This document shows positions 3,795 through 55,336 of a stretch of 64,000 nucleotides of DNA, piece after piece. Within the stretch, counting starts at the first letter, position 1; each line of letters starts with the position of its first letter. A program made the position numbers and the translations under genes. Origin of the DNA: Candidatus Minusculum obligatum (lineage in GTDB: Bacteria > Patescibacteriota > Minisyncoccia > Phycocordibacterales > Phycocordibacteraceae); the NCBI GenBank assembly GCA_045401155.1, contig CP174360.1, forward strand, positions 419,079-483,078, in the 5' to 3' direction. The notes under the pieces were generated by a model. It made no database searches. It had not been told where the DNA came from and worked only from the letters and a program-made list of their open reading frames with translations.

Positions 3795-5396
3795 TTACGT
3801 ATTTTTAACCGGCAACTCGATAATAAATCGAGACCCCTTCCCTTTTCCTTCTGACTCTACCCACACCCTTCCCTTATGCGCCTCCACCATTTGCTTTGCA
3901 ACATACAGTCCAAGACCTGTTCCTGAGGTATTAATCTTATTTGCTCCACGCGCACGAATAAACTTATTAAATAGATTATCAATATCCTCTTTTGCAATTC
4001 CGATACCAGTATCTGCAACAGTCACTCGTGCCTTTCCTTCAAACATTGTCGCTTTAACCGTCACGCTTCCTTGTGGTGTGTATTTAATAGAGTTATCGAC
4101 AAGGTTTGCGATCACCTGCTTTATCTTTCCAATATCAGCAGTAACTGTGATCTTCTCTGATCCGCTAAATAATAGATTTAGATTTTTATTCTCTGCGACT
4201 GGTAGATATTCATCTACAACCGTCTTTGCAAGATCTCGTAGATTAAAATCACTCATCTCATACTTCATTCGCCCCTGCTCAATACGTGAGATGTTTAGAT
4301 AGTCCTCAACTGACTTAATCATAAGCCGAGAAGACTCATAAATCTTCTGTAGTGGATCTTCAAGCACCTTTGGATATTCTCCAAACTCTTTTTCAAGGAT
4401 AAGAGAAATATATCCGCGAATAGCAGTAATAGGACTTCTAAGCTGGTGTGATGCGATAGATACAAACTCTGACTTCTGTCGATCAAGCTCTTTAAGCCGA
4501 GCATTTGCAACACGTAAATCTTCTGCAAGCTTTTCAATTCTCTCTCGCTGCTTTACCTCCTTATATACACTTTGGATCAAAAGGAATGCTGCAATACTCA
4601 CCAACACTAGTGTTGCGGTGGTAATAATGAGTGCAAGGAATGTCTGCGTAATAAAGAGCTGCGCAAGCAGGATAAGAATAATAAACCCTGCAAAAAGCTC
4701 AGTAACAATAATTTTCACGTCAAAGAGTTTAAAGCGTGCCATCGCCATAAACATCATACTTACCATCACAAGTGTAAATACTGGACCAAGCCACGTGAAC
4801 TGAAAAATACCTAGATATGGAAATAGAAGATTTGAAACAAGTGCGAGCGTTGGGGAAATAATTGCCCCAAGGAATACATAGCGCACCTGCCCCTTCTCAA
4901 GCTCCGTACGTGCAAGCGTGTATTGTCTAAACAAAAGAAAATATCCTAGGAAAAAAGATCCCGTCACAAGAGCCGAGTACCATGAGTACAGTGGACCAAG
5001 GCCATAAGAAATACCTGTTGAAGCACCAATTACTAAATCAGTAGTAAAGATTAGATATAAGAACACTCCTGCAAGTGCAATTACAGGCAACAAAAGACGT
5101 TTTCTCTTTGCAAGAATGTTTTGTGGGAAGAGTGTCGTAAAGATAAGGAAGAACAAAGAGCTTAATAGTGCAAAACTATGCGTATACTCAATCCATTGCA
5201 AAGAAAGATCTTCAAAGAGTGAAAAATAAAACCCTGCTACTGCCCCAGCCCAAAGTGCAGTAGAAAGAGAGAAAAGTGCAAAAAGAATATTCTTAAGCAC
5301 GCGTACACCGCGGGAAAATACGATAAAAGGAAAAATAATATTGATAGTCGCTGTTAGAAACAAGACTATTTGAATAACCGCGTTCGATACACTCAC
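3795..5396 (-). CDS. sensor histidine kinase, polytopic membrane N-terminus
   Basis: About 7-8 predicted TM helices, H-box SHQLRSPITAIRGY, and N/G1/G2 boxes (NLVDNSIKYT, DTGIGI, GTGLGL). No cognate response regulator is adjacent. Confidence 0.85.
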   Translation of the reverse strand: MSVSNAVIQIVLFLTATINIIFPFIVFSRGVRVLKNILFALFSLSTALWAGAVAGFYFSLFEDLSLQWIEYTHSFALLSSLFFLIFTTLFPQNILAKRKRLLLPVIALAGVFLYLIFTTDLVIGASTGISYGLGPLYSWYSALVTGSFFLGYFLLFRQYTLARTELEKGQVRYVFLGAIISPTLALVSNLLFPYLGIFQFTWLGPVFTLVMVSMMFMAMARFKLFDVKIIVTELFAGFIILILLAQLFITQTFLALIITTATLVLVSIAAFLLIQSVYKEVKQRERIEKLAEDLRVANARLKELDRQKSEFVSIASHQLRSPITAIRGYISLILEKEFGEYPKVLEDPLQKIYESSRLMIKSVEDYLNISRIEQGRMKYEMSDFNLRDLAKTVVDEYLPVAENKNLNLLFSGSEKITVTADIGKIKQVIANLVDNSIKYTPQGSVTVKATMFEGKARVTVADTGIGIAKEDIDNLFNKFIRARGANKINTSGTGLGLYVAKQMVEAHKGRVWVESEGKGKGSRFIIELPVKNT

Positions 5397-5420
5397 ACGC
5401 CTAGTATACCTGAGGTTCGC

Positions 5421-6173
5421 TTAGATAATCCGTGCAGCCTTCAGAAAATTTGTGTACAAATTATTTTTTAACTTGTATTCCGTGTCGCTTATACGATCAA
5501 AGAGGAATCGTCCGTGTACTGTTTTATCTAAAAACTTTTGCCCGTCAGTAATAGATACATATGCCGGAATCGCAGGGTCTTCTTCATTATAAAAATATGG
5601 AGCCATAGGACCATCTTCAATATATAGAAGTTTAGAATCTTCTATAAGCGTGTATGGGAAATTTAGTTTATCCAGCTTCTTAAGGAGTCTAGATTTGATA
5701 AATGAATATGAATATACAAGCCCATTCTCTTTTGCGTAATCAAGAAGACAGCTCATCATAAACAACAGCACTACATTTCTTGGAAAGTATGCAGTGTCAC
5801 TATATTTATCAATTACAAGCCGTCCAAGCTCGCACAAATGTTCCTTTGGAATATCAGCAAGTTCTTCTGGTACTTCAAAAGAATAATTATTAAATACAGG
5901 AAGTGTATGATGTTCGGCTTTAATAAGGCGAACAAATCCAATAAGACGATCTCCTACCATTGCACCAAAATATATTGTCCCTTCTTGCTCATCGTATAGG
6001 TCAGATTCTTTTTCCTCCGTATACTGCGTAGTATCAAGATAATTATATTTTGTATAAATCTTATATCGAAGCGCTTCTGCTTTTTCTACCTCCTCTTTAC
6101 TTACAAGCTCTCCAAATGAGATTACTTCATCAATATCCTTTGTTTGTACGTGGAGTGTCTTGTAAGCCTTCAT
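5421..6173 (-). CDS. GNAT-fold N-acyltransferase, N-acyl amino acid synthase-like (OlsB/FeeM/LuxI-like family)
   Basis: About 250 aa with a YFGAMVGDRLIGFVRL...ELGRLVID pattern reminiscent of FeeM/OlsB/autoinducer-synthase type acyl-ACP-dependent N-acyltransferases. Last gene of a tight 3-gene operon. Confidence 0.4.
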   Translation of the reverse strand: MKAYKTLHVQTKDIDEVISFGELVSKEEVEKAEALRYKIYTKYNYLDTTQYTEEKESDLYDEQEGTIYFGAMVGDRLIGFVRLIKAEHHTLPVFNNYSFEVPEELADIPKEHLCELGRLVIDKYSDTAYFPRNVVLLFMMSCLLDYAKENGLVYSYSFIKSRLLKKLDKLNFPYTLIEDSKLLYIEDGPMAPYFYNEEDPAIPAYVSITDGQKFLDKTVHGRFLFDRISDTEYKLKNNLYTNFLKAARII

Positions 6174-6174
6174 A

Positions 6175-6882
6175 CTACTTTGTTGCTTTATGCATCACAG
6201 CTTGATCTCCATAGTGCCGACCGTGAAATTCAACATTCTTGAATCCACCTGATTTTAGAAACGCTTCCTGACTATCTTCATCTAAGAATGCATATGCCCC
6301 ATCTTTATTTTCCATTTTAATACGTGCGTTAAACCAAAAGATTTGAAGCGTAGGGATTACAAACTTAAGGATCTTTGCACACGTACCAAAGAAGCCACTT
6401 TTATCCATTTCCTCCTTTAAGTGTGCGTTGTAAATCTTCATTGGACTGAATCCTGGAGAAATATTTGAAACAGCCACTACCCCACCTGGCTTTAGCACTC
6501 TATAAAACTCTTTAGCCACAGACTCTCGATCTTTTTCAGGAAGCGTATAGATAACATTATTTGAAACAACCTTATCAAACGTCTCATCTTCAAATGGAAG
6601 CTTATCTGTAAGACTTCCAATGTAAGCTTCTGCATCAGGAATCTTCTCAAGAAGTAGTCGTGTACCCGCATCTGAAATATCAAGCGTAACAAGATTAACT
6701 TTTGCGACAGCACAAATCTTTTTAGAAACATTTCCTGTTCCAGACCCAGCATCAAGCACTTTTTCTCCCTCTTTTGGGTCAAGTACTTTTACAAGTGCAC
6801 CCGTTAGATGTTGATATGGGTAGAGCTCATTTAGAACGTCGTACACCTCAAAATATTTATTCCAAAATTTATCTGAAAGCAT
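6175..6882 (-). CDS. class I SAM-dependent methyltransferase
   Basis: Motif I VLDAGSGTGNVS, post-I acidic residue, motif LKPGGVVAV. Lies 1-2 nt from both flanking genes. Confidence 0.8.
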   Translation of the reverse strand: MLSDKFWNKYFEVYDVLNELYPYQHLTGALVKVLDPKEGEKVLDAGSGTGNVSKKICAVAKVNLVTLDISDAGTRLLLEKIPDAEAYIGSLTDKLPFEDETFDKVVSNNVIYTLPEKDRESVAKEFYRVLKPGGVVAVSNISPGFSPMKIYNAHLKEEMDKSGFFGTCAKILKFVIPTLQIFWFNARIKMENKDGAYAFLDEDSQEAFLKSGGFKNVEFHGRHYGDQAVMHKATK

Positions 6883-22259: not shown

Positions 22260-24098
22260 CTATTCTAGAACCGCTTTTATACGACGAATACCTGCAGAAC
22301 TTGCCTCTTCTTTTTTAATACGAAAATGTCCAAGCTCACTTGTATTTTCTACGTGTGGTCCACCACAAAATTCTAGAGAATAATCTCCAACTGAATATAC
22401 GCGCACCACATCCCCATACTTTTCTTCAAATAGACCGATAGCTCCACGCTTCTTAGCATCCTCAAGAGAAATATCTTCGTGTGTTACGGGCAGATTCTTA
22501 GCAATTTGCTCATTTACAATCTTTTCCACTTCAGCTTTTTCCTCATCCGTCATCTTCCGATCAAATGAGAAATCAAAACGAAGTCGCTCAGGAGTAATGT
22601 TACTTCCCTTTTGCATCACATCTTCTCCAAGTACGTCTTTGAGCGCTCGATGCAGCAGGTGTGTAGCAGTATGATACTTCACACTCATCTCACTGTTATC
22701 TGCCAGTCCTCCCTTAAATTTCTTCTCAGCTCCTTCACGAGACTTTGCCTGATGCTCTTCAAAGGCTTTTTTATATCCTTCTACATCCACATTCTTTCCT
22801 TCCTCTTGCGCAAGCTCAAGCGTAAGCTCAAGTGGGAACCCGTATGATGTAAAGAGTACAAATGCATCCTCTCCAGATATATCTCCCTCAATCTTAGAGA
22901 ACTGCTTCATTCCACCCTTAAGTGTCTTCCTAAACTTCTCTTCCTCTTCTTTAATTGCATTTAAAATTACATCCTCTTTATCCCCAAGGTTTGTGTAGTG
23001 ATCTTTATATACATCGATATATGGCTTAGCTAGCTCATGTAGGCTCCCTTCTGTAATAGAGAGTTTGTCTGCGTGTCGCACCGCTCGACGAATAAGACGT
23101 CGAAGAATATATCCCGCTTCTGTATTACTTGGCATCACGCCATCTCCGATCATAAATGTAGCTCCACGAAGATGATCCATAATCACACGATACGAAACCT
23201 CATTTCCTTCATAGGAAGTGCCTGAAAGCTCAGCAATCTTCTCCCGAGTTGGTGTAAATACATCAATCTTAAATACGTCAGGATCCCCAAGCGTTGCAGC
23301 AGTAATACGCTCAAGTCCTCCTCCAAAATCTACGTTCTTGCGAGGAAGTTTTCCAAAACCACCCTCTTCCTTAATGAATTCCATAAATACAGAGTTTCCA
23401 ATCTCAATGAAGCGACCTGAGTCACTATTTGGATGCTCCTCCATATCTTTATATGCAGGATCTGCAAACTCTTCTCCAAAATCATAAAACACCTCTGAAT
23501 CTGGCCCTCCCGGCTCGCCAACAGGCATGTTGTTTGGTGCTCCTGAACGACTCCACCAATTCTTCTTTGCATCGTAATAGAAGATACGTCCTCCCTGCAT
23601 GCCTTTTTTATATCCATCTTCCTCAGATCCAATATGGATATCTTTTGCTTCAATTCCTTTTGATGCAAAAAGCTCTTTCCAAATAGCTACAGACTCCTCA
23701 TCTTTATCAATACCATCTCCTCCCTCATATACCGTTACGTAAATACGATTTGGATCAAGTCCAAGCTCATCAGTCAAAAATGCAAAAAACCATGGCAGCT
23801 GCTCTTTCTTGAAGTAACTACCTAGAGACCAATTTCCAAGCATTTCAAAGAATGTGGTGTGTCGATTATCTCCAACCTCTTCGATATCATCCGCACGAAA
23901 ACACTTCTGCGAATCAGTTAGACGGTCCCCTTGTGGATGCTCTTTCCCAAGCAGATATGGCACAAGCGGCTGCATACCAGAACTTGTGAAGAGTGTTGTT
24001 GGATCATTTTCTGGAGTAATAGAAGCAGATGGAATAACCACATGATCTCTCTCACGTAAAAATTGTAGGTATTTTTCTCGTACTTCTTTTACTGTCAT
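22260..24098 (-). CDS. alaS: alanine--tRNA ligase, short form (catalytic + tRNA-recognition + editing domains, no C-Ala domain)
   Basis: Class II core (FTSSGMQP, GNWSLGSYFK), editing-domain HxxxH (HTATHLLH) and CGGPHV; 612 aa versus about 870 for canonical AlaRS. Confidence 0.93.
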   Translation of the reverse strand: MTVKEVREKYLQFLRERDHVVIPSASITPENDPTTLFTSSGMQPLVPYLLGKEHPQGDRLTDSQKCFRADDIEEVGDNRHTTFFEMLGNWSLGSYFKKEQLPWFFAFLTDELGLDPNRIYVTVYEGGDGIDKDEESVAIWKELFASKGIEAKDIHIGSEEDGYKKGMQGGRIFYYDAKKNWWSRSGAPNNMPVGEPGGPDSEVFYDFGEEFADPAYKDMEEHPNSDSGRFIEIGNSVFMEFIKEEGGFGKLPRKNVDFGGGLERITAATLGDPDVFKIDVFTPTREKIAELSGTSYEGNEVSYRVIMDHLRGATFMIGDGVMPSNTEAGYILRRLIRRAVRHADKLSITEGSLHELAKPYIDVYKDHYTNLGDKEDVILNAIKEEEEKFRKTLKGGMKQFSKIEGDISGEDAFVLFTSYGFPLELTLELAQEEGKNVDVEGYKKAFEEHQAKSREGAEKKFKGGLADNSEMSVKYHTATHLLHRALKDVLGEDVMQKGSNITPERLRFDFSFDRKMTDEEKAEVEKIVNEQIAKNLPVTHEDISLEDAKKRGAIGLFEEKYGDVVRVYSVGDYSLEFCGGPHVENTSELGHFRIKKEEASSAGIRRIKAVLE

Positions 24099-24099
24099 A

Positions 24100-24363
24100 T
24101 TAGAAAATAAGTAGTTCTAGTGCCCAAACCTCTAGAATATAGCCTATGATAATGAGCGCAAGTCCAAGGAAAATAACATATTTCTCTCGTCCGTACTCTT
24201 TAACCACTACAGAGTCAATTTGCTTCTCTTGAATCATTTTACTGTGCATCAAGAGTCCAGCAACAATCACAACAACCTTTCCAAGAAGTGAGAGTGTCAT
24301 TCCGATAAAAAGCAGTGAGGCCATTAGTGCCATTATGCACTGGTTGTCTGTTTCTTCAACCAC
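24100..24363 (-). CDS. small hypothetical membrane protein (2 TM)
   Basis: Two hydrophobic helices. The 5' end overlaps the pepF 3' end by 31 nt, so the true start may be an internal Met. Confidence 0.3.
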
Positions 24364-51702: not shown

Positions 51703-52293
51703 TTATTGTAAACCCTTTACCTCTTTGTATCGAAAACAATCTACAGCATGGTCATTTACCATTCCTGATGCCTGCATGTGCGCATACACCGTTGTTGGTC
51801 CCAAAAATTTAAATCCTCTCTTTTTTAAATCTTTTGCAAATGCTTCTGATTCTTTTGTCACTGCAGGATAGTCTTTACTTGTTTTAATTTTACTTTGCAT
51901 CGGCTTTCCACCAACAAAGCTCCACATATACACATCAAAAGACCCGAATTCTTTTTGAACCTCTAAAAATCTTTTTGCATTATTGATTGTGGCCTCTATT
52001 TTTTTTCTATTTCGAATAATAGACGAATCTTGAAGCATCTTTTTAATATCCACCTCTGTAAGCTTTGCAACCTTCTTTGGATCAAAATTTTTAAAGTTTT
52101 TTCTATACCCTTCTCGTTTTTTAAGGATCGTCTCCCAAGAAAGACCAGCCTGTGCACTTTCAAGTGTTAGAAACTCAAAAATCTTTTGATCATCATGCAT
52201 AGGCACACCCCACTCTTCATCGTGATACCTAATGTAGAAATCTTTATCTTCTGGAACCCATGGGCAGCGTGTTTTATTTTTCATCTTTTTCAA
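51703..52293 (-). CDS. tag: DNA-3-methyladenine glycosylase I
   Basis: RCPWV..D..Y..YHD.EWG (Tag zinc-snap motif), TLESAQAGLSW. Confidence 0.9.
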   Translation of the reverse strand: MKKMKNKTRCPWVPEDKDFYIRYHDEEWGVPMHDDQKIFEFLTLESAQAGLSWETILKKREGYRKNFKNFDPKKVAKLTEVDIKKMLQDSSIIRNRKKIEATINNAKRFLEVQKEFGSFDVYMWSFVGGKPMQSKIKTSKDYPAVTKESEAFAKDLKKRGFKFLGPTTVYAHMQASGMVNDHAVDCFRYKEVKGLQ

Positions 52294-52639
52294 ACTCTAG
52301 ACACATAGAGTTTACACAATGCCGGACATTTTTATCTGTCATCCCCTCTCCTTTAAATACATGTCCTAAGTGAGCACCACAATTTGCACACACAATCTCT
52401 GTGCGAATACCATCTGTATCTAAAACTTCCTCCACCGCACCATCTATCGCATCATCAAAACTTGGCCAACCGGTTCCTGAATCAAACTTTGCACCTGAAT
52501 CAAAGAGCTTTGCACCACAGCGCTTACACGTATACATTCCCTCCTCCTTGTGATCTATAAACTCACCAGTAAAAGGCATTTCCGTACCTTTATCTTCGAT
52601 AATACGTTTTTCTTCTGGAGTTAGTTCTTTCATTACCAC
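52274..52639 (-). CDS. msrB: peptide-methionine (R)-S-oxide reductase
   Basis: Two CxxC zinc pairs, GTGWPSF, RTEIVCANCGAHLGHVF. Confidence 0.95.
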   Translation of the reverse strand: MVMKELTPEEKRIIEDKGTEMPFTGEFIDHKEEGMYTCKRCGAKLFDSGAKFDSGTGWPSFDDAIDGAVEEVLDTDGIRTEIVCANCGAHLGHVFKGEGMTDKNVRHCVNSMCLEFEKDEK

Positions 52640-52660
52640 AAGTATATCAAAGAAAAATAC

Positions 52661-53602
52661 TTAGAGAGTCATGAAAAGAGCACCTTTGCTTCCATCTAAA
52701 TTAATTTCATAAATATTAAATTGTTCTTTTGCTCCAGGCATGCCTGGAGAACCGCTTGGCATACCTGCCATGCCAATACCTTTTATAGGCGGCCTTTCCG
52801 CAAGAAGCTTTTGTACAGCCTCTTCAGGAACATGTCCTTCAACCACGTACCCTCCAATCGTCATAGTATGACAGCTTCCAAGTTCACTTGGAACACCAAA
52901 CTGCTCTTTTATAGCAATGAGCTCATCTGTATTTTCTGCAACCACATCGTATCCCTTACCTTGAAGGTGTGCGACATATCCTGAACAACATCCACATGTA
53001 GGTGACTTATATACGGTTGCGATAATATCTTTTGCTTCAATCATTGCGACTTCGCTAGAACTGATCTCTCGATAAATATCACGCATGAGATTTATTTCTT
53101 CTGACTGATTTACAATGATTGCATTAGCAAGAGCTGTTATTTCTTCATGCTCTGCAATTGGAAGCACTGTTTGAGCCATCATGATTGCACCCATGTGATG
53201 CATAGTCATATCATGAAGGAATACTCGATCAAGATTTTCTCCTGAAAGAGATTCGAGCTCCCTCATCATGGGCACGTACACGCCCTGATCTATGTACTCT
53301 TCTTCATACCACTTCTTATAATTTTCCTTCATTTGAGCGACTTCTTTTGTCTGTGTTGAGATAATGTTTTCTGAGAGAGAAACCATACGCTCTACTGTTC
53401 CGCCACGCCCAAGAACTTCTTGTGCTGTAGAAATAGCCTCTTCGTGGTGTGGAATCATGTGCTCTAAAAATTCACGCTCATTAGAGAAGTTTGGAACCAT
53501 CGCATGTTGTACCGGTTGCTTTTCCATAAATGAATTGTTTAAAAACAAAACTGCCACAGCAACCACAACCCCTCCCAAAAGAATTAATCCTGCATTTTTC
53601 AT
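52661..53602 (-). CDS. DUF305 (ferritin-like, HH-motif) fused to CopG/DUF411-like CxCC metal-binding domain; putative periplasmic copper-homeostasis protein
   Basis: Signal/TM N-terminus; twin HH motifs (MIPHHEEAI, MTMHHMGAIMMAQ); C-terminal TCGCCSG...SCHTM, a CopG-type CxCC motif. Confidence 0.65.
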   Translation of the reverse strand: MKNAGLILLGGVVVAVAVLFLNNSFMEKQPVQHAMVPNFSNEREFLEHMIPHHEEAISTAQEVLGRGGTVERMVSLSENIISTQTKEVAQMKENYKKWYEEEYIDQGVYVPMMRELESLSGENLDRVFLHDMTMHHMGAIMMAQTVLPIAEHEEITALANAIIVNQSEEINLMRDIYREISSSEVAMIEAKDIIATVYKSPTCGCCSGYVAHLQGKGYDVVAENTDELIAIKEQFGVPSELGSCHTMTIGGYVVEGHVPEEAVQKLLAERPPIKGIGMAGMPSGSPGMPGAKEQFNIYEINLDGSKGALFMTL

Positions 53603-53662
53603 AGTTTTCCAATTCTACACTAGTAAACAAAAGACGTTAAATTCATTTGCTACACTGTATGC

Positions 53663-54115
53663 ATGAACCACTATAAAAATCTTTTTCTTTCAATTGCAAC
53701 AAGCTTTTTAGTAATGTACGCGCTTACGTATATTGCTGTATACGCATGGGGTGACATCTATTTATTTAGCACCCGAAGTTTATACATGGCTATGATCATG
53801 ATTGCGCCAATGATCTTGATTATGCTCATTTTTATGGGAAACATGTATAAAAACAAAAAACTAAATACTGCATTGTACGTATTTAGTATTGGCTTATTTT
53901 TTCTCTCTTTCCTCTTTATACGAAAGCAAGTGTTTGTAGACGATACACAATTTTTACGCTCTATGATTCCCCACCACTCAAGCGCAATTACCATGTGTAA
54001 AGAAAGTTCCCTATCTGACTCAGAAGTTATTGAGCTTTGCGAGAACATCATTACTGCTCAACAAAAAGAAATAGACCAGATGAACTCTATTTTAGAACGA
54101 CTAAAAAATAACTAG
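53663..54115 (+). CDS. membrane-anchored DUF305-like protein (single HH repeat)
   Basis: Three TM helices, then MIPHHSSAITM...CENIITAQQKEIDQM. Paralogous to the N-terminal half of the divergent 52661..53602 product. Confidence 0.5.
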   Translation: MNHYKNLFLSIATSFLVMYALTYIAVYAWGDIYLFSTRSLYMAMIMIAPMILIMLIFMGNMYKNKKLNTALYVFSIGLFFLSFLFIRKQVFVDDTQFLRSMIPHHSSAITMCKESSLSDSEVIELCENIITAQQKEIDQMNSILERLKNN

Positions 54116-54131: not shown

Positions 54132-54189
54132 GTTAAAAAGAAAAACCAGCAGTCGCTGGAATTTCTTTTTTTGGATTTATCCAAAATTG
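54132..54189. repeat. 58-bp direct repeat copy 1 (bidirectional terminator hairpin + TTTGGAT-NN-ATCCAAA palindrome)
   Basis: gttaaaaagaaaaaCCAGCagtcGCTGGaatttctttttttGGATttATCCaaaattg. Identical to 55032..55089 except for 3 nt; the two copies are exactly 900 bp apart. Confidence 0.85.
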
Positions 54190-54219
54190 AAGCGATTAGG
54201 AGCTGGTTGGAATCTTTAC

Positions 54220-54819
54220 TTAACTAAGACTCTTAAGATCTTCAATAATCTCTGAAAACTCATTCTCATTGAAGTGTCCTCTGTCTTTAAATGCTCGTAT
54301 ACGAGCATTTGGTAACAACTCTTGATATCTTGATAAGTGAGAGAACGGAACAACCTGATCATCCTCGCTATGATACAGATAAATATCTGACACCTGTTCA
54401 CGAAGCAATGAAAGGTCATTCTCAATATTAAAGTCCACATATGGATCTTTTTCTATTGAATTAAATGGTGCAGCAACTAAAAACAGTGCTTTAATTTCTT
54501 TTTGATATTTTTCTTCAGAAAGATACTTTGCAAGAAATATTGCACCTAGAGAATGCCCAATACACACCACCTTCTCATCAAGAAGTGGAACTATCTTTTC
54601 AAACATTATCTTCCACTCAGAATATTTTGCATTATCTCTGCAAGGCATTGATGGCATGAGAATATCGTAACCATCTCCTAAAACAGATTGCAGATGCATC
54701 TTCCAACCACCGGGCCGTAATCTAGTCAGTGTTATTTCTTTCTCTTTGAGTGCTTGGAGGTATCCATCATGAGTTTCGTATGCACTTCCTCCACTAATAA
54801 CAACAATTTGTTTTTTCAT
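54220..54819 (-). CDS. alpha/beta hydrolase, YdeN/RBBP9-like serine hydrolase
   Basis: Nucleophile elbow GHSLGA with downstream Asp/His. The start is placed at MKKQIVVISGG, because the longer track ORF (to 54885) would read through a GC-rich terminator hairpin. Confidence 0.7.
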   Translation of the reverse strand: MKKQIVVISGGSAYETHDGYLQALKEKEITLTRLRPGGWKMHLQSVLGDGYDILMPSMPCRDNAKYSEWKIMFEKIVPLLDEKVVCIGHSLGAIFLAKYLSEEKYQKEIKALFLVAAPFNSIEKDPYVDFNIENDLSLLREQVSDIYLYHSEDDQVVPFSHLSRYQELLPNARIRAFKDRGHFNENEFSEIIEDLKSLS

Positions 54820-54832
54820 ATTAAAAGTATAA

Positions 54833-55005
54833 CAAAAAAGGAAAAGCCCCTCCTGAGCACCATGAAGGCGGGAGGGGCTGACCATAGCCAGACATTGTCT
54901 GACCGTATTTGCCCCTGGGTCTCTAGAGCTCTTGCTCTTTGTAGGCGTGCACTTACGCCTCGTTGTTCGGTCGAAGACCTACTCCCAGGGAAGAAAACTG
55001 ATCCA
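54833..55005 (-). ncRNA. candidate structured 5' leader (riboswitch/attenuator) or small RNA ending in an intrinsic terminator
   Basis: A roughly 170-nt GC-rich island in an AT-rich intergenic region. Predicted hairpins: GGUC-UUCG-GACC, GGCGU-AAGUGC-ACGCC, CAGAC-AAU-GUCUG, a CCCUGGG...CCCAGGG closing helix, then GCCCCUCC-N15-GGAGGGGC plus UUUUCCUUUUUU 13 nt before the hydrolase ATG. A perfect TATAAT lies just upstream at 55012..55017. Confidence 0.35.
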
Positions 55006-55031
55006 AAATAAATTATATTGAATAATAATTT

Positions 55032-55089
55032 TTTGTCAAAAAGAAAAACCAGCAGTCGCTGGAATTTCTTTTTTTGGATAAATCCAAAA
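55032..55089. repeat. 58-bp direct repeat copy 2 (terminator for tRNA-Ala)
   Basis: Same sequence as 54132..54189 with tt to aa in the palindrome loop and t to c at the 5' edge. Immediately 3' of tRNA-Ala. Confidence 0.85.
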
Positions 55090-55092
55090 TTG

Positions 55093-55166
55093 TGGACTCG
55101 AGAGGAATCGAACCCCCGACCTCCTCAGTGCAAATGAGGCGCTCTAGCCAACTGAGCTACGAGCCC
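55093..55166 (-). tRNA. tRNA-Ala (anticodon UGC)
   Basis: Manual fold: acceptor GGGCUCG/CGAGUCC with the G3:U70 Ala identity pair, D-arm GCUC-AGUUGGCUA-GAGC, anticodon stem CCUCA/UGAGG with loop UUUGCAC, T-loop GGUUCGAUUCC, discriminator A. CCA is not encoded. Confidence 0.9.
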
Positions 55167-55336
55167 ATAAATGCGCATACGCGCAAAATGAGCAGCGGGA
55201 GGCGGAGCAAGGACGAACGTCCTACCTGAACGCTCCGCCTCCCCGTTCGCTGGAGTACGGCTCATGAACGAACCAATGGGGACGGTGCCCACTGCCTGCT
55301 CGGAACTAAGCGAACGTAAGTAGGAGAATACAAGAC

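What the first reader, a model, noticed from the sequence alone, without database searches (positions are those of the whole stretch)
54833..55005. GC-rich, multi-hairpin leader ending in an intrinsic terminator 13 nt before an alpha/beta hydrolase gene: riboswitch/attenuator or sRNA candidate
On the minus strand, a perfect TATAAT is followed by about 170 nt of strikingly GC-rich sequence in an otherwise AT-rich intergenic space. It folds into several stable hairpins (GGUC-UUCG-GACC tetraloop; GGCGU-AAGUGC-ACGCC; CAGAC-AAU-GUCUG; an enclosing CCCUGGG...CCCAGGG helix), then an 8-bp GC stem plus U-tract terminator, and then the hydrolase ATG. This is the canonical architecture of a transcription-attenuating riboswitch or a leader-encoded sRNA. 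I could not match it to a known riboswitch class by eye; glycine, yybP-ykoY and SRP-RNA similarities were considered and judged unconvincing. It may be a novel cis-regulatory RNA.
Basis: seen in the sequence. Interest (0 to 1): 0.6.

Follow-up and report, generated by a model that had tools for sequence, protein, structure and literature searches.

The report
Undescribed four-way-junction small RNA gene
The flagged GC-rich stretch is a real, independently transcribed small RNA whose four-helix core belongs to a strongly conserved RNA family, absent from Rfam, that is shared by candidate-phyla-radiation bacteria and uncultivated phages; it is not a riboswitch for the neighbouring hydrolase gene, and its function is unknown.

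Summary
In detail: a perfect TTGACA-16-TATAAT promoter, about 170 nt of structured GC-rich RNA and an intrinsic terminator lie on the minus strand at 55039..54834. The riboswitch/attenuator reading does not hold. Five loci with the closest hydrolase homologs have no such leader. The nearest RNA homolog (UBA3533) has no hydrolase downstream. The hydrolase also has its own extended -10 box ending 6 nt before its ATG, in a genome where leaderless genes are common. The 5' 82 nt (54992..54911) form a four-way junction: P1 / NGUA / P2 / GAACAACGA / P3 (GGCG..CGCC) / UACAA / P4 / AGAGA / P1'. I found about 80 instances. In Patescibacteria it occurs as promoter-RNA-terminator units next to unrelated genes. 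In uncultivated phages it starts 1-2 nt after tRNA-like genes inside tRNA arrays. P1, P2 and P4 covary heavily (97% of cells paired, against 32-48% in slid controls), while the junction is invariant. Rfam 15 has no match, and neither did my literature searches. The RNA is sporadic: none of 80 rpsI-syntenic relatives carries it. Here it lies in a 903-bp insert flanked by 55-bp repeats at the 3' end of tRNA-Ala. Best reading: a mobile, trans-acting structured small RNA of a new class. Its function is unknown.

The parts
55012..55039 (-). Sigma-70-type promoter of the small RNA: TTGACA (55039..55034), 16-nt spacer, TATAAT (55017..55012). Predicted transcription start about 55005..55003.
   Evidence: 12/12 match. 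The promoter is conserved in the UBA3533 homolog.
54911..54992 (-). Four-way-junction core, the conserved family motif. P1 54990..54984 pairs with 54919..54913. J1/2 AGUA is 54983..54980. P2 hairpin is 54979..54969. J2/3 GAACAACGA is 54968..54960. P3 hairpin is 54959..54944. J3/4 UACAA is 54943..54939. P4 hairpin is 54938..54925. J4/1 AGAGA is 54924..54920.
   Evidence: Model R1 hit of 83.3 bits, E = 6e-21. Covariation in P1, P2 and P4. RNAalifold predicts the same helices independently.
54886..54904 (-). P5 hairpin GGUCAGAC-AAU-GUCUGGCU. This 3' extension is seen only in the window and in UBA3533.
   Evidence: fold. UBA3533 has GGUCAGG-UUCG-CCUGGCU, so the pairing is preserved by changes on both sides.
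54834..54878 (-). Intrinsic terminator. Outer stem GCCCCUCC/GGAGGGGC, inner stem CGCC/GGUG, then UUUUCCUUUUUU.
   Evidence: The inner stem changes from G.U to G-C in UBA3533.
54826..54834 (-). Context: extended -10 box TGTTATACT, ending 6 nt before the hydrolase ATG. This is the likely promoter of a leaderless hydrolase mRNA and it overlaps the end of the sRNA terminator tract.
   Evidence: Read from the sequence. Genome-wide peak of -10 boxes 6-10 nt before start codons (12 of 59 genes) and few Shine-Dalgarno sites. Inferred, not shown.
54220..54819 (-). Context: alpha/beta hydrolase gene (199 aa, PF06821 Ser_hydrolase). A neighbour of the RNA, not part of it.
   Evidence: identical to the protein of Patescibacteria group bacterium UBA2103.
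55038..55092 (-). Context: direct repeat, copy A (small hairpin plus bidirectional terminator). It starts at the last base of tRNA-Ala, and its last two T's supply the first two bases of the sRNA -35 box.
54135..54189 (-). Context: direct repeat, copy B, 903 bp from copy A. It closes the [sRNA + hydrolase] insert.
   Evidence: 34 nt identical; none expected by chance.
54179..54214 (-). Context: cassette-boundary repeat GATTCCAACCAGCTCCTAATCGCTTCAATTTTGGAT. Four related copies separate successive cassettes in UBA3533.
55092..55166 (-). Context: tRNA-Ala(UGC). Its 3' flank differs between relatives, which marks it as an integration hot spot.

Best explanation
The element is an independently transcribed small RNA gene of about 170 nt: consensus promoter, 14-nt leader, four-way junction, P5 hairpin and intrinsic terminator.

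Its 82-nt junction domain belongs to a conserved RNA family that is not in Rfam 15. The family occurs in two settings:
- Promoter-RNA-terminator units scattered among unrelated genes in Patescibacteria.
- Units fused 1-2 nt behind tRNA-like genes in the tRNA arrays of uncultivated phages. Those phages share the host-like leaderless-promoter signature.

Helices P1, P2 and P4 change freely but stay paired. The four junction strands and the base of P3 (about 35 nt) do not change at all. Inferred: the junction is the working part, either a binding pocket or a catalytic core. Also inferred: the RNA acts in trans as a free, compact molecule whose 5' end is set at P1. In most bacterial copies the transcription start does this. 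In phages, tRNA 3'-end processing would do it.

It does not regulate the hydrolase. Here the RNA and the hydrolase together form a 903-bp insertion bounded by 55-bp direct repeats at the 3' end of tRNA-Ala. That fits the family's sporadic, horizontally moved distribution.

Shown: the structure, its conservation, its distribution, and its independence from the hydrolase family. Inferred: the transcript ends, action in trans, and mobility. Unknown: the molecular partner or reaction.
For: Promoter, terminator and fold statistics.

Family size:
- The pattern GAACAACGAGGCG-N8-CGCCTAC hits 63 IMG/VR contigs.
- It hits 41 GTDB species genomes. About 21 of these carry the full motif and the rest are coding coincidences.
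- Model R1 finds 83 copies in the fetched loci, most at 65-93 bits.

Covariation:
- 97.0% of cells are paired, against 32-48% when partners are slid.
- 14 of 19 pairs show changes on both sides.
- All 7 pairs of P1 covary, with 3-6 pair types each.
- No shuffle out of 500 reaches the observed covariation score.
- RNAalifold gives the same four helices.

Invariant core: releasing P3 in a second viral scan added no true member.

Independence from the hydrolase.

Placement of ends: the bacterial copies have a -10 box placed so that transcription starts at P1 or 1-3 nt before it, and a terminator follows 5-10 nt after P1. In phages, P1 starts 2 nt after the tRNA acceptor end.

Sporadic distribution: 0 of 80 rpsI-syntenic loci carry it, including three with 91% S9 identity to a carrier. 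It is absent from ddl-tRNA-Ala loci of relatives.

Insert repeats.

Not in Rfam. No literature match.
Against: - There are no expression data. The transcript ends are predicted only.
- The invariance of J2/3, J3/4 and P3 is partly built in, because every member was found with a pattern that fixes them. Only P3 was tested independently.
- In the window, AGGGGC (54916..54911, the P1 3' strand) could pair with GCCCCU (54878..54873, the terminator 5' arm), as in a riboswitch. Read-through into the hydrolase cannot be excluded.
- No partner protein or ligand emerges from gene neighbourhoods.
- My literature search covers open-access papers only, so the motif might be described elsewhere.
Confidence: 0.72

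Rival explanations
1. Riboswitch or attenuator. The junction binds a ligand, the terminator at 54878..54834 then stops or allows transcription, and the hydrolase is expressed by read-through.
For: - An aptamer-like invariant junction is followed by a terminator directly before a gene on the same strand.
- A possible alternative pairing exists between AGGGGC and GCCCCU (read from the sequence).
- No -35 box is evident for the hydrolase.
Against: - Hydrolase homologs lack the leader.
- The UBA3533 homolog keeps an almost identical RNA and terminator with no gene behind it.
- In other members the terminator is followed by a fresh promoter or by a convergent gene.
- The hydrolase has an extended -10 box placed for a leaderless start, as do 12 of 59 genes here.
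- A 19-nt P5 hairpin sits between P1 and the terminator.
Confidence: 0.07
2. A new class of self-cleaving ribozyme that cuts at its own 5' edge. In phages this would trim the 3' trailer of the upstream tRNA, as HDV-like theta ribozymes do.
For: - The distance from the tRNA end to P1 is a fixed 1-2 nt in dozens of diverged phage copies.
- The junction is invariant, as in a ribozyme core.
- The distribution is patchy and phage-linked.
- A RAGATH-1 hammerhead lies 1 kb away in L024.
Against: - In most bacterial copies transcription would begin at P1, which leaves nothing to cleave.
- A 3' terminator is unusual for self-cleaving ribozymes, an argument made for comparable motifs in PMC5737381.
- The fold is a nested junction, unlike the HDV double pseudoknot.
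- Host RNase Z would release the RNA just as well.
Confidence: 0.13
3. A diverged copy of a known RNA (SRP, 6S, the yybP-ykoY Mn2+ riboswitch, tRNA-like RNA, or T4-type stable RNA) that the Rfam models miss.
For: - P1 flanked by GGAGUAG and AGAGACC recalls the L1 loop of yybP-ykoY (from memory, not tested).
- P1 is 7 bp, P3 is 5 bp and J3/4 is 5 nt, which resembles the dimensions of a tRNA.
Against: - No Rfam hit, even at E<=10.
- The RNA is absent from close relatives, which a housekeeping RNA would not be.
- The junction strands of 4, 9, 5 and 5 nt and the tetraloop-capped P2 and P4 do not fit a tRNA.
- T4 rnaC and rnaD score below 9 bits.
Confidence: 0.03
4. The conservation serves DNA rather than RNA: an attachment or recombination site of integrative elements that target tRNA 3' ends.
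For: - The motif lies next to tRNA genes in phages and in the window.
- Direct repeats and cassette-boundary repeats surround it.
- A serine recombinase occupies the same site in relatives.
Against: - Compensatory changes that include G.U pairs on one strand only, a dedicated promoter and a dedicated terminator all point to an RNA.
- The repeats lie outside the motif.
- Many bacterial copies have no tRNA nearby.
Confidence: 0.04

Closest known systems
[quoted passage not shown] 2017 (drum, DUF3800-I, FuFi-1, skipping-rope; PMC5737381)
   Same: These are stand-alone RNAs with a multistem junction and many invariant nucleotides, followed by a Rho-independent terminator. They are rarely in 5' UTRs, so they are neither plausible riboswitches nor plausible self-cleavers, and their function is unknown.
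   Different: There is no sequence or structure match to any Rfam model. No associated protein family was found, whereas three of those motifs have one. This family also has a tRNA-fused phage form and is centred on Patescibacteria.
HDV-like theta ribozymes next to phage tRNAs (PMC10879173)
   Same: A small structured RNA directly abuts the 3' end of phage tRNA genes in uncultivated phages.
   Different: Theta ribozymes have a nested double pseudoknot (stated from my own knowledge). This RNA is an ordinary four-way junction. Cleavage was not tested. This family also has free-standing bacterial copies with their own promoter and terminator.
Phage T4 stable RNAs rnaC and rnaD (species 1 and 2) in the tRNA cluster
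   Same: They are small stable RNAs co-located with phage tRNA genes and released by tRNA-processing enzymes. Their function is still unknown (annotation; the rest is from my own knowledge).
   Different: They are not homologous: the best model score in the T4 tRNA region is 8.5 bits.
yybP-ykoY Mn2+ riboswitch
   Same: It has a four-helix architecture, and a closing helix flanked by GGAGUAG and AGACC-like strands (recalled from memory).
   Different: The Rfam model gives no hit. There are no docking internal loops in the arms. The RNA is not upstream of Mn2+ transporters, and it is stand-alone.
GOLLD and ROOL RNAs
   Same: [quoted passage not shown]
   Different: They are 500-800 nt long and ornate. 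This RNA has an 82-nt core. There is no model match.

Membership tests
Four-way-junction family defined here (model R1) | A 7-bp P1 closing a junction with strands NGUA, GAACAACGA, UACAA and AGAGA, and a P3 that starts GGCG and ends CGCC. | tested here: met
   The window copy has every element. It scores 83.3 bits, E = 6e-21, over the full model length.
Four-way-junction family defined here (model R1) | Helices maintained by compensatory changes across members. | tested here: met
   97% paired and 14 of 19 pairs with two-sided changes; every helix substitution between the window and UBA3533 preserves pairing.
Transcription-attenuating riboswitch | The aptamer is conserved upstream of homologous or functionally related genes. 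| tested here: not met
   It is absent upstream of 5 hydrolase homolog loci. Downstream genes in 16 bacterial loci are unrelated, and three are convergent.
Transcription-attenuating riboswitch | Mutually exclusive terminator and antiterminator pairing linked to P1. | tested here: inconclusive
   A 6-bp alternative (AGGGGC with GCCCCU) exists in the window and in UBA3533, but those sequences are identical, so covariation cannot test it. It is not evident in other members.
Transcription-attenuating riboswitch | Ligand binding that changes termination. | not testable with these tools
   This needs in-line probing and transcription assays.
Any Rfam 15 family (including SRP, 6S, glycine, yybP-ykoY, hatchet, twister-sister, HDV-like, drum, skipping-rope) | A score at or near the family's gathering threshold. 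| tested here: not met
   The only window hit at gathering threshold is tRNA-Ala. Nothing relevant appears at E<=10 in 54780-55080, at E<=0.1 in 14 phage loci, or at E<=0.01 in L101.
Self-cleaving ribozyme | Site-specific self-scission. | not testable with these tools
   Only context is available. The 1-2 nt spacing from the tRNA end argues for it. A transcription start at P1 and a 3' terminator in bacterial copies argue against it.
Housekeeping RNA of Patescibacteria | Present in close relatives at the syntenic position. | tested here: not met
   0 of 80 rpsI-linked loci carry it. It is absent downstream of ddl-tRNA-Ala in 9 related loci.
tRNA or tRNA-like RNA | A cloverleaf with 2-, 1- and 0-nt connectors, a 7-nt anticodon loop and a T-loop. 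| tested here: not met
   ARAGORN and the Rfam tRNA model call only the true tRNA. The connectors are 4, 9, 5 and 5 nt. P2 and P4 end in variable tetraloops.

The most novel reading that the evidence does not exclude
The junction is the active site of a new functional RNA class shared by Patescibacteria and their phages. It could be a new self-cleaving or otherwise catalytic RNA tied to tRNA maturation. It could instead be a free-standing aptamer or decoy that binds a conserved host factor or signalling molecule, for example in phage-host conflict. Phages would express it through the tRNA-processing pathway, and it would spread into bacterial genomes as an RNA-only moron.
Probability: 0.3. Interest if true: 0.85.

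Novelty: categorically new. Interest (0 to 1): 0.7.

Why it matters
New bacterial RNA classes that combine a multi-helix junction, dozens of invariant nucleotides and a distribution across distant lineages are rare. Historically such classes have turned out to be riboswitches, ribozymes or RNP cores (the argument made in PMC5737381).

This one is centred on the candidate phyla radiation, a large and poorly understood part of bacterial diversity with almost no described regulatory RNAs, and on phages that probably infect it. The tRNA-fused form suggests that phages use tRNA processing to produce a non-tRNA effector RNA.

Some members come from Saccharibacteria (L086, L090), a group with cultivated representatives, so the RNA could be studied experimentally. 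The work also supplies a working covariance model and a 20-nt signature for finding further copies.

"Categorically new" refers to the RNA class. The mechanism is unknown, and an earlier description outside the searched sources cannot be excluded.

Tried and rejected
- Rfam at gathering and at permissive thresholds: no family.
- Hydrolase-based synteny (5 loci) and ddl-based synteny (9 loci): no RNA homolog by nhmmer or by the model.
- blastn against cultured phages and plasmids, with both the window RNA and a phage consensus: only AT-rich or chance matches.
- First viral pattern, ACCCAGGGGCAAATACGG: 0 hits.
- rpsI synteny: three carriers have the RNA between rpsI and grpE, but 80 related metagenome loci have none, so a core-gene reading was rejected.
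- Releasing P3 in the search pattern: 36 new loci, all chance or coding matches.
- T4 rnaC/rnaD homology: rejected.
- Recurrent protein partner: the clusters only reflect one related phage lineage, and PHROGs gives unknown-function families, an exonuclease and nothing RNA-related.
- Literature searches by sequence string and by keywords: nothing.
- Considered by inspection and dropped: 6S (no rod with a central bubble), SRP (no domain IV motif), T-box, k-turn at P3 (AA where GA is required), HDV-like fold (wrong strand order).
- Half of the 41 genome hits to the pattern were coding-sequence coincidences in high-GC genomes (for example Halomonas, Streptomyces, Rokubacteria). They were excluded.

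Full report
**What is in the window**

On the minus strand, tRNA-Ala(UGC) at 55166..55092 is followed by a 55-nt segment with two hairpins. Next comes a perfect sigma-70-type promoter, TTGACA-16-TATAAT, at 55039..55012. About 170 nt of G+C-rich sequence follow, ending in a strong hairpin and the tract UUUUCCUUUUUU at 54878..54834. The ATG of a 199-aa PF06821 serine hydrolase lies at 54819.

The 185-nt stretch folds at -69.9 kcal/mol, against -54.9 for shuffles (z = -3.46, 0 of 200 shuffles as good). The hydrolase is identical to a protein of Patescibacteria group bacterium UBA2103, so the window comes from a candidate-phyla-radiation (CPR) bacterium.

**It is not a leader of the hydrolase**

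- The four closest hydrolase homologs (55-60% identity; five loci, L001-L005) sit directly behind another gene, with gaps from -58 to +19 nt.
- Neither nhmmer nor the covariance model finds the RNA in those loci.
- The nearest RNA homolog, in Patescibacteria bacterium UBA3533 (L101), is about 93% identical over promoter, junction, P5 and terminator. It is followed by a repeat and another cassette, not by a hydrolase.
- The window genome rarely uses Shine-Dalgarno sites: 15 of 59 genes even by a loose rule.
- Strong -10 boxes pile up 6-10 nt before start codons, in 12 of 59 genes against about 0.4 per position elsewhere. This is the signature of leaderless mRNAs.
- The hydrolase fits that pattern: TGTTATACT, an extended -10 box, ends 6 nt before its ATG.

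The hydrolase therefore most likely has its own start, overlapping the tail of the RNA's terminator. This last step is inferred from sequence and has not been shown.

**A conserved family**

Rfam 15 gave only the tRNA at gathering threshold, and nothing meaningful at E<=10 over the element. Synteny through ddl also gave nothing. In relatives with 76-91% identical Ddl, the tRNA-Ala 3' flank carries different cargo, including a large serine recombinase.

A pattern taken from the junction, GAACAACGAGGCG-N8-CGCCTAC, hit 63 IMG/VR viral contigs and 41 GTDB species genomes. About half of the genome hits are coding coincidences in high-GC organisms. The others carry the full motif.

All true members share this order of elements:
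- P1 (7 bp)
- NGUA
- P2 hairpin, closed by an invariant G paired with C or U
- GAACAACGA
- P3 (GGCG, one covarying pair, a 6-nt loop, CGCC)
- UACAA
- P4 hairpin
- AGAGA
- the 3' strand of P1

**Covariation**

I aligned 34 distinct sequences with MAFFT, so the alignment was not fitted to the structure.
- 97.0% of cells form standard pairs, against 32-48% when the 3' partners are slid by 1-3 columns.
- 14 of 19 pairs show changes on both sides.
- All seven P1 pairs take three to six pair types.
- No shuffle out of 500 reaches the observed covariation score.
- RNAalifold independently returns the same four helices.

A covariance model built from this alignment scores the window copy at 83.3 bits (E = 6e-21). 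It finds 83 copies in the fetched loci, one per locus.

The invariance of the junction strands is partly built in by the search pattern. However, a second viral scan that freed all of P3 except its outer pair produced no additional true member. GGCG/CGCC therefore appears to be genuinely fixed.

**Two genomic settings**

In Patescibacteria (Paceibacterota, Kaiserbacteria, Uhrbacteria, Minisyncoccia, Saccharibacteria and unclassified), the RNA is a self-contained unit.
- A -35/-10 promoter is placed so that transcription would begin at P1 or 1-3 nt before it.
- The junction follows, then a 5-10 nt linker and an intrinsic terminator.
- The next gene has its own promoter, is unrelated from genome to genome, and is convergent in L086, L104 and L113.
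- The window and UBA3533 are a sub-type with a 14-15 nt leader and an extra P5 hairpin.

In the viral contigs, P1 begins 2 nt after the acceptor end of a tRNA or tRNA-like gene, inside tRNA arrays.
- Many of these tRNAs carry 35-73 nt inserts in the anticodon loop.
- The contigs are real phages: PHROG families, an exonuclease, and a protein I read as a DnaB-type helicase.
- The motif is absent from cultured phage genomes at blastn sensitivity.
- Genes in these contigs show the same pile-up of -10 boxes just before start codons as the CPR loci. High-GC bacterial control loci do not. This suggests, but does not prove, that the phages infect Patescibacteria.

**Sporadic and probably mobile**

Three carriers have the RNA between rpsI and grpE. 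Yet none of 80 metagenomic loci with 60-91% identical S9 has it. A 91% relative has a protein gene directly after the rpsI terminator instead. The RNA is therefore not a housekeeping RNA.

In the window, the promoter, RNA and hydrolase form a 903-bp unit bounded by 55-nt direct repeats (55092..55038 and 54189..54135). The first repeat begins at the last base of tRNA-Ala.

A further repeat, GATTCCAACCAGCTCCTAA..., follows the hydrolase. It occurs four times in UBA3533, where it separates successive small cassettes. After the last copy, UBA3533 continues with sequence homologous to the flank that follows tRNA-Ala in L006.

I read this as serial insertion of small cassettes at a tRNA-linked hot spot. 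This is an inference.

**How it most likely works**

The pattern of freely covarying arms capped by interchangeable tetraloops, together with about 35 invariant junction nucleotides across many diverged sequences, points to the junction itself as the functional site.

The two expression routes converge on the same product: a compact RNA whose 5' end lies at P1. In bacteria a precisely placed transcription start would produce it. In phages the tRNA 3'-processing machinery would (the RNase Z rule is established knowledge; its application here is an inference). This argues for a free, trans-acting RNA.

What it binds or catalyses cannot be decided by computation. No protein family recurs across lineages.

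A self-cleaving role would explain the fixed 1-2 nt spacing behind phage tRNAs. It is hard to reconcile with bacterial copies that start at P1 and end in terminators. [quoted passage not shown]

**Comparison with known systems**

[quoted passage not shown] It matches none of them, and no other Rfam 15 model.
- It shares genomic context with theta ribozymes (PMC10879173) and with T4 rnaC and rnaD. It does not share their fold or sequence.
- Open-access literature searches by sequence and by keyword found no description.

I therefore classify it as a new RNA class. Two caveats apply: subscription-only literature and unpublished motif collections were not searched, and novelty at the level of mechanism is unproven.

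**Verdict**

- Observation: confirmed.
- Riboswitch/attenuator interpretation: not supported.
- sRNA and "novel RNA" interpretation: supported.
- Interest: 0.7.

Noticed in passing
window 55038-55092 and 54135-54189; L007-L010 about 5072-6634: A 55-nt direct repeat brackets the sRNA plus hydrolase, starting right at the 3' end of tRNA-Ala. In relatives the same flank holds different cargo, including a 520-aa large serine recombinase. This looks like an integration hot spot.
   Followed up: partly
window, whole (59 gene starts); also phage loci L015-L077 and CPR loci L079-L113: Shine-Dalgarno sites are rare, and strong -10 boxes cluster 6-10 nt before start codons, which implies widespread leaderless mRNAs. 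The motif-bearing phage contigs show the same signature. High-GC control loci do not.
   Followed up: partly
window 55167-55336 (minus strand): The ddl to tRNA-Ala spacer is 60% G+C and strongly structured (MFE -69.9, z = -4.3), with a 13-bp hairpin GGGAGGCGGAGCG...UGCUCCGCCUCCC. It may be the ddl terminator or a tRNA leader. It is not conserved in L006.
   Followed up: partly
L016-L077, about 120-150 nt upstream of each motif (for example L030 549-694, L022 2204-2322): The phage tRNAs that precede the motif carry 35-73 nt inserts in the anticodon loop, too short for group I introns. The inserts have recurring hairpins whose loops hold palindromes (ACUAGU, UCUAGA, UGAUCA). Some inserts begin CCUCCUUCA, which resembles the anti-Shine-Dalgarno sequence.
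   Followed up: partly
L101 2600-2860: The cassette after the sRNA in UBA3533 holds a second promoter, a GC-rich stretch of about 230 nt and a terminator. It has no Rfam match and may be another undescribed RNA.
   Followed up: no
L101 1434, 2267, 2534, 2886; window 54179-54214: The repeat GATTCCAACCA..TCCTAACTGCTCCACAA marks the end of each small cassette. Its last bases resemble the 3' end of tRNA-Ala plus its flank (TCCACAATTTGG).
   Followed up: partly
L103 6621-6696 (minus strand): A tRNA that ARAGORN calls with a 4-nt anticodon 'atca' lies 20 nt upstream of the motif in a Patescibacteria genome. It may be an unusual or suppressor tRNA.
   Followed up: no
L024 3342-3412: A RAGATH-1 hammerhead ribozyme (59.7 bits, above its gathering score) lies about 1 kb downstream of the motif in one viral contig.
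   Followed up: no
window 24038-24102 (minus strand): A weak model hit (17.3 bits, E = 0.025) that lacks P2 and P3. I judged it a chance match.
   Followed up: yes
window 52274-54115: Just beyond the insert lie two DUF305 genes (one fused to DUF411) and a short ORF that looks like MsrB by eye, which I did not check against a family library. I read the set as a metal or oxidative-stress group in the variable region downstream of tRNA-Ala.
   Followed up: no
L080 (Methanobacteriota MAG), L085, L092, L093, L109: The tRNA-fused, phage-type copies occur on contigs binned to non-CPR organisms, including an archaeon. These are probably phage or prophage contigs that were mis-binned.
   Followed up: no
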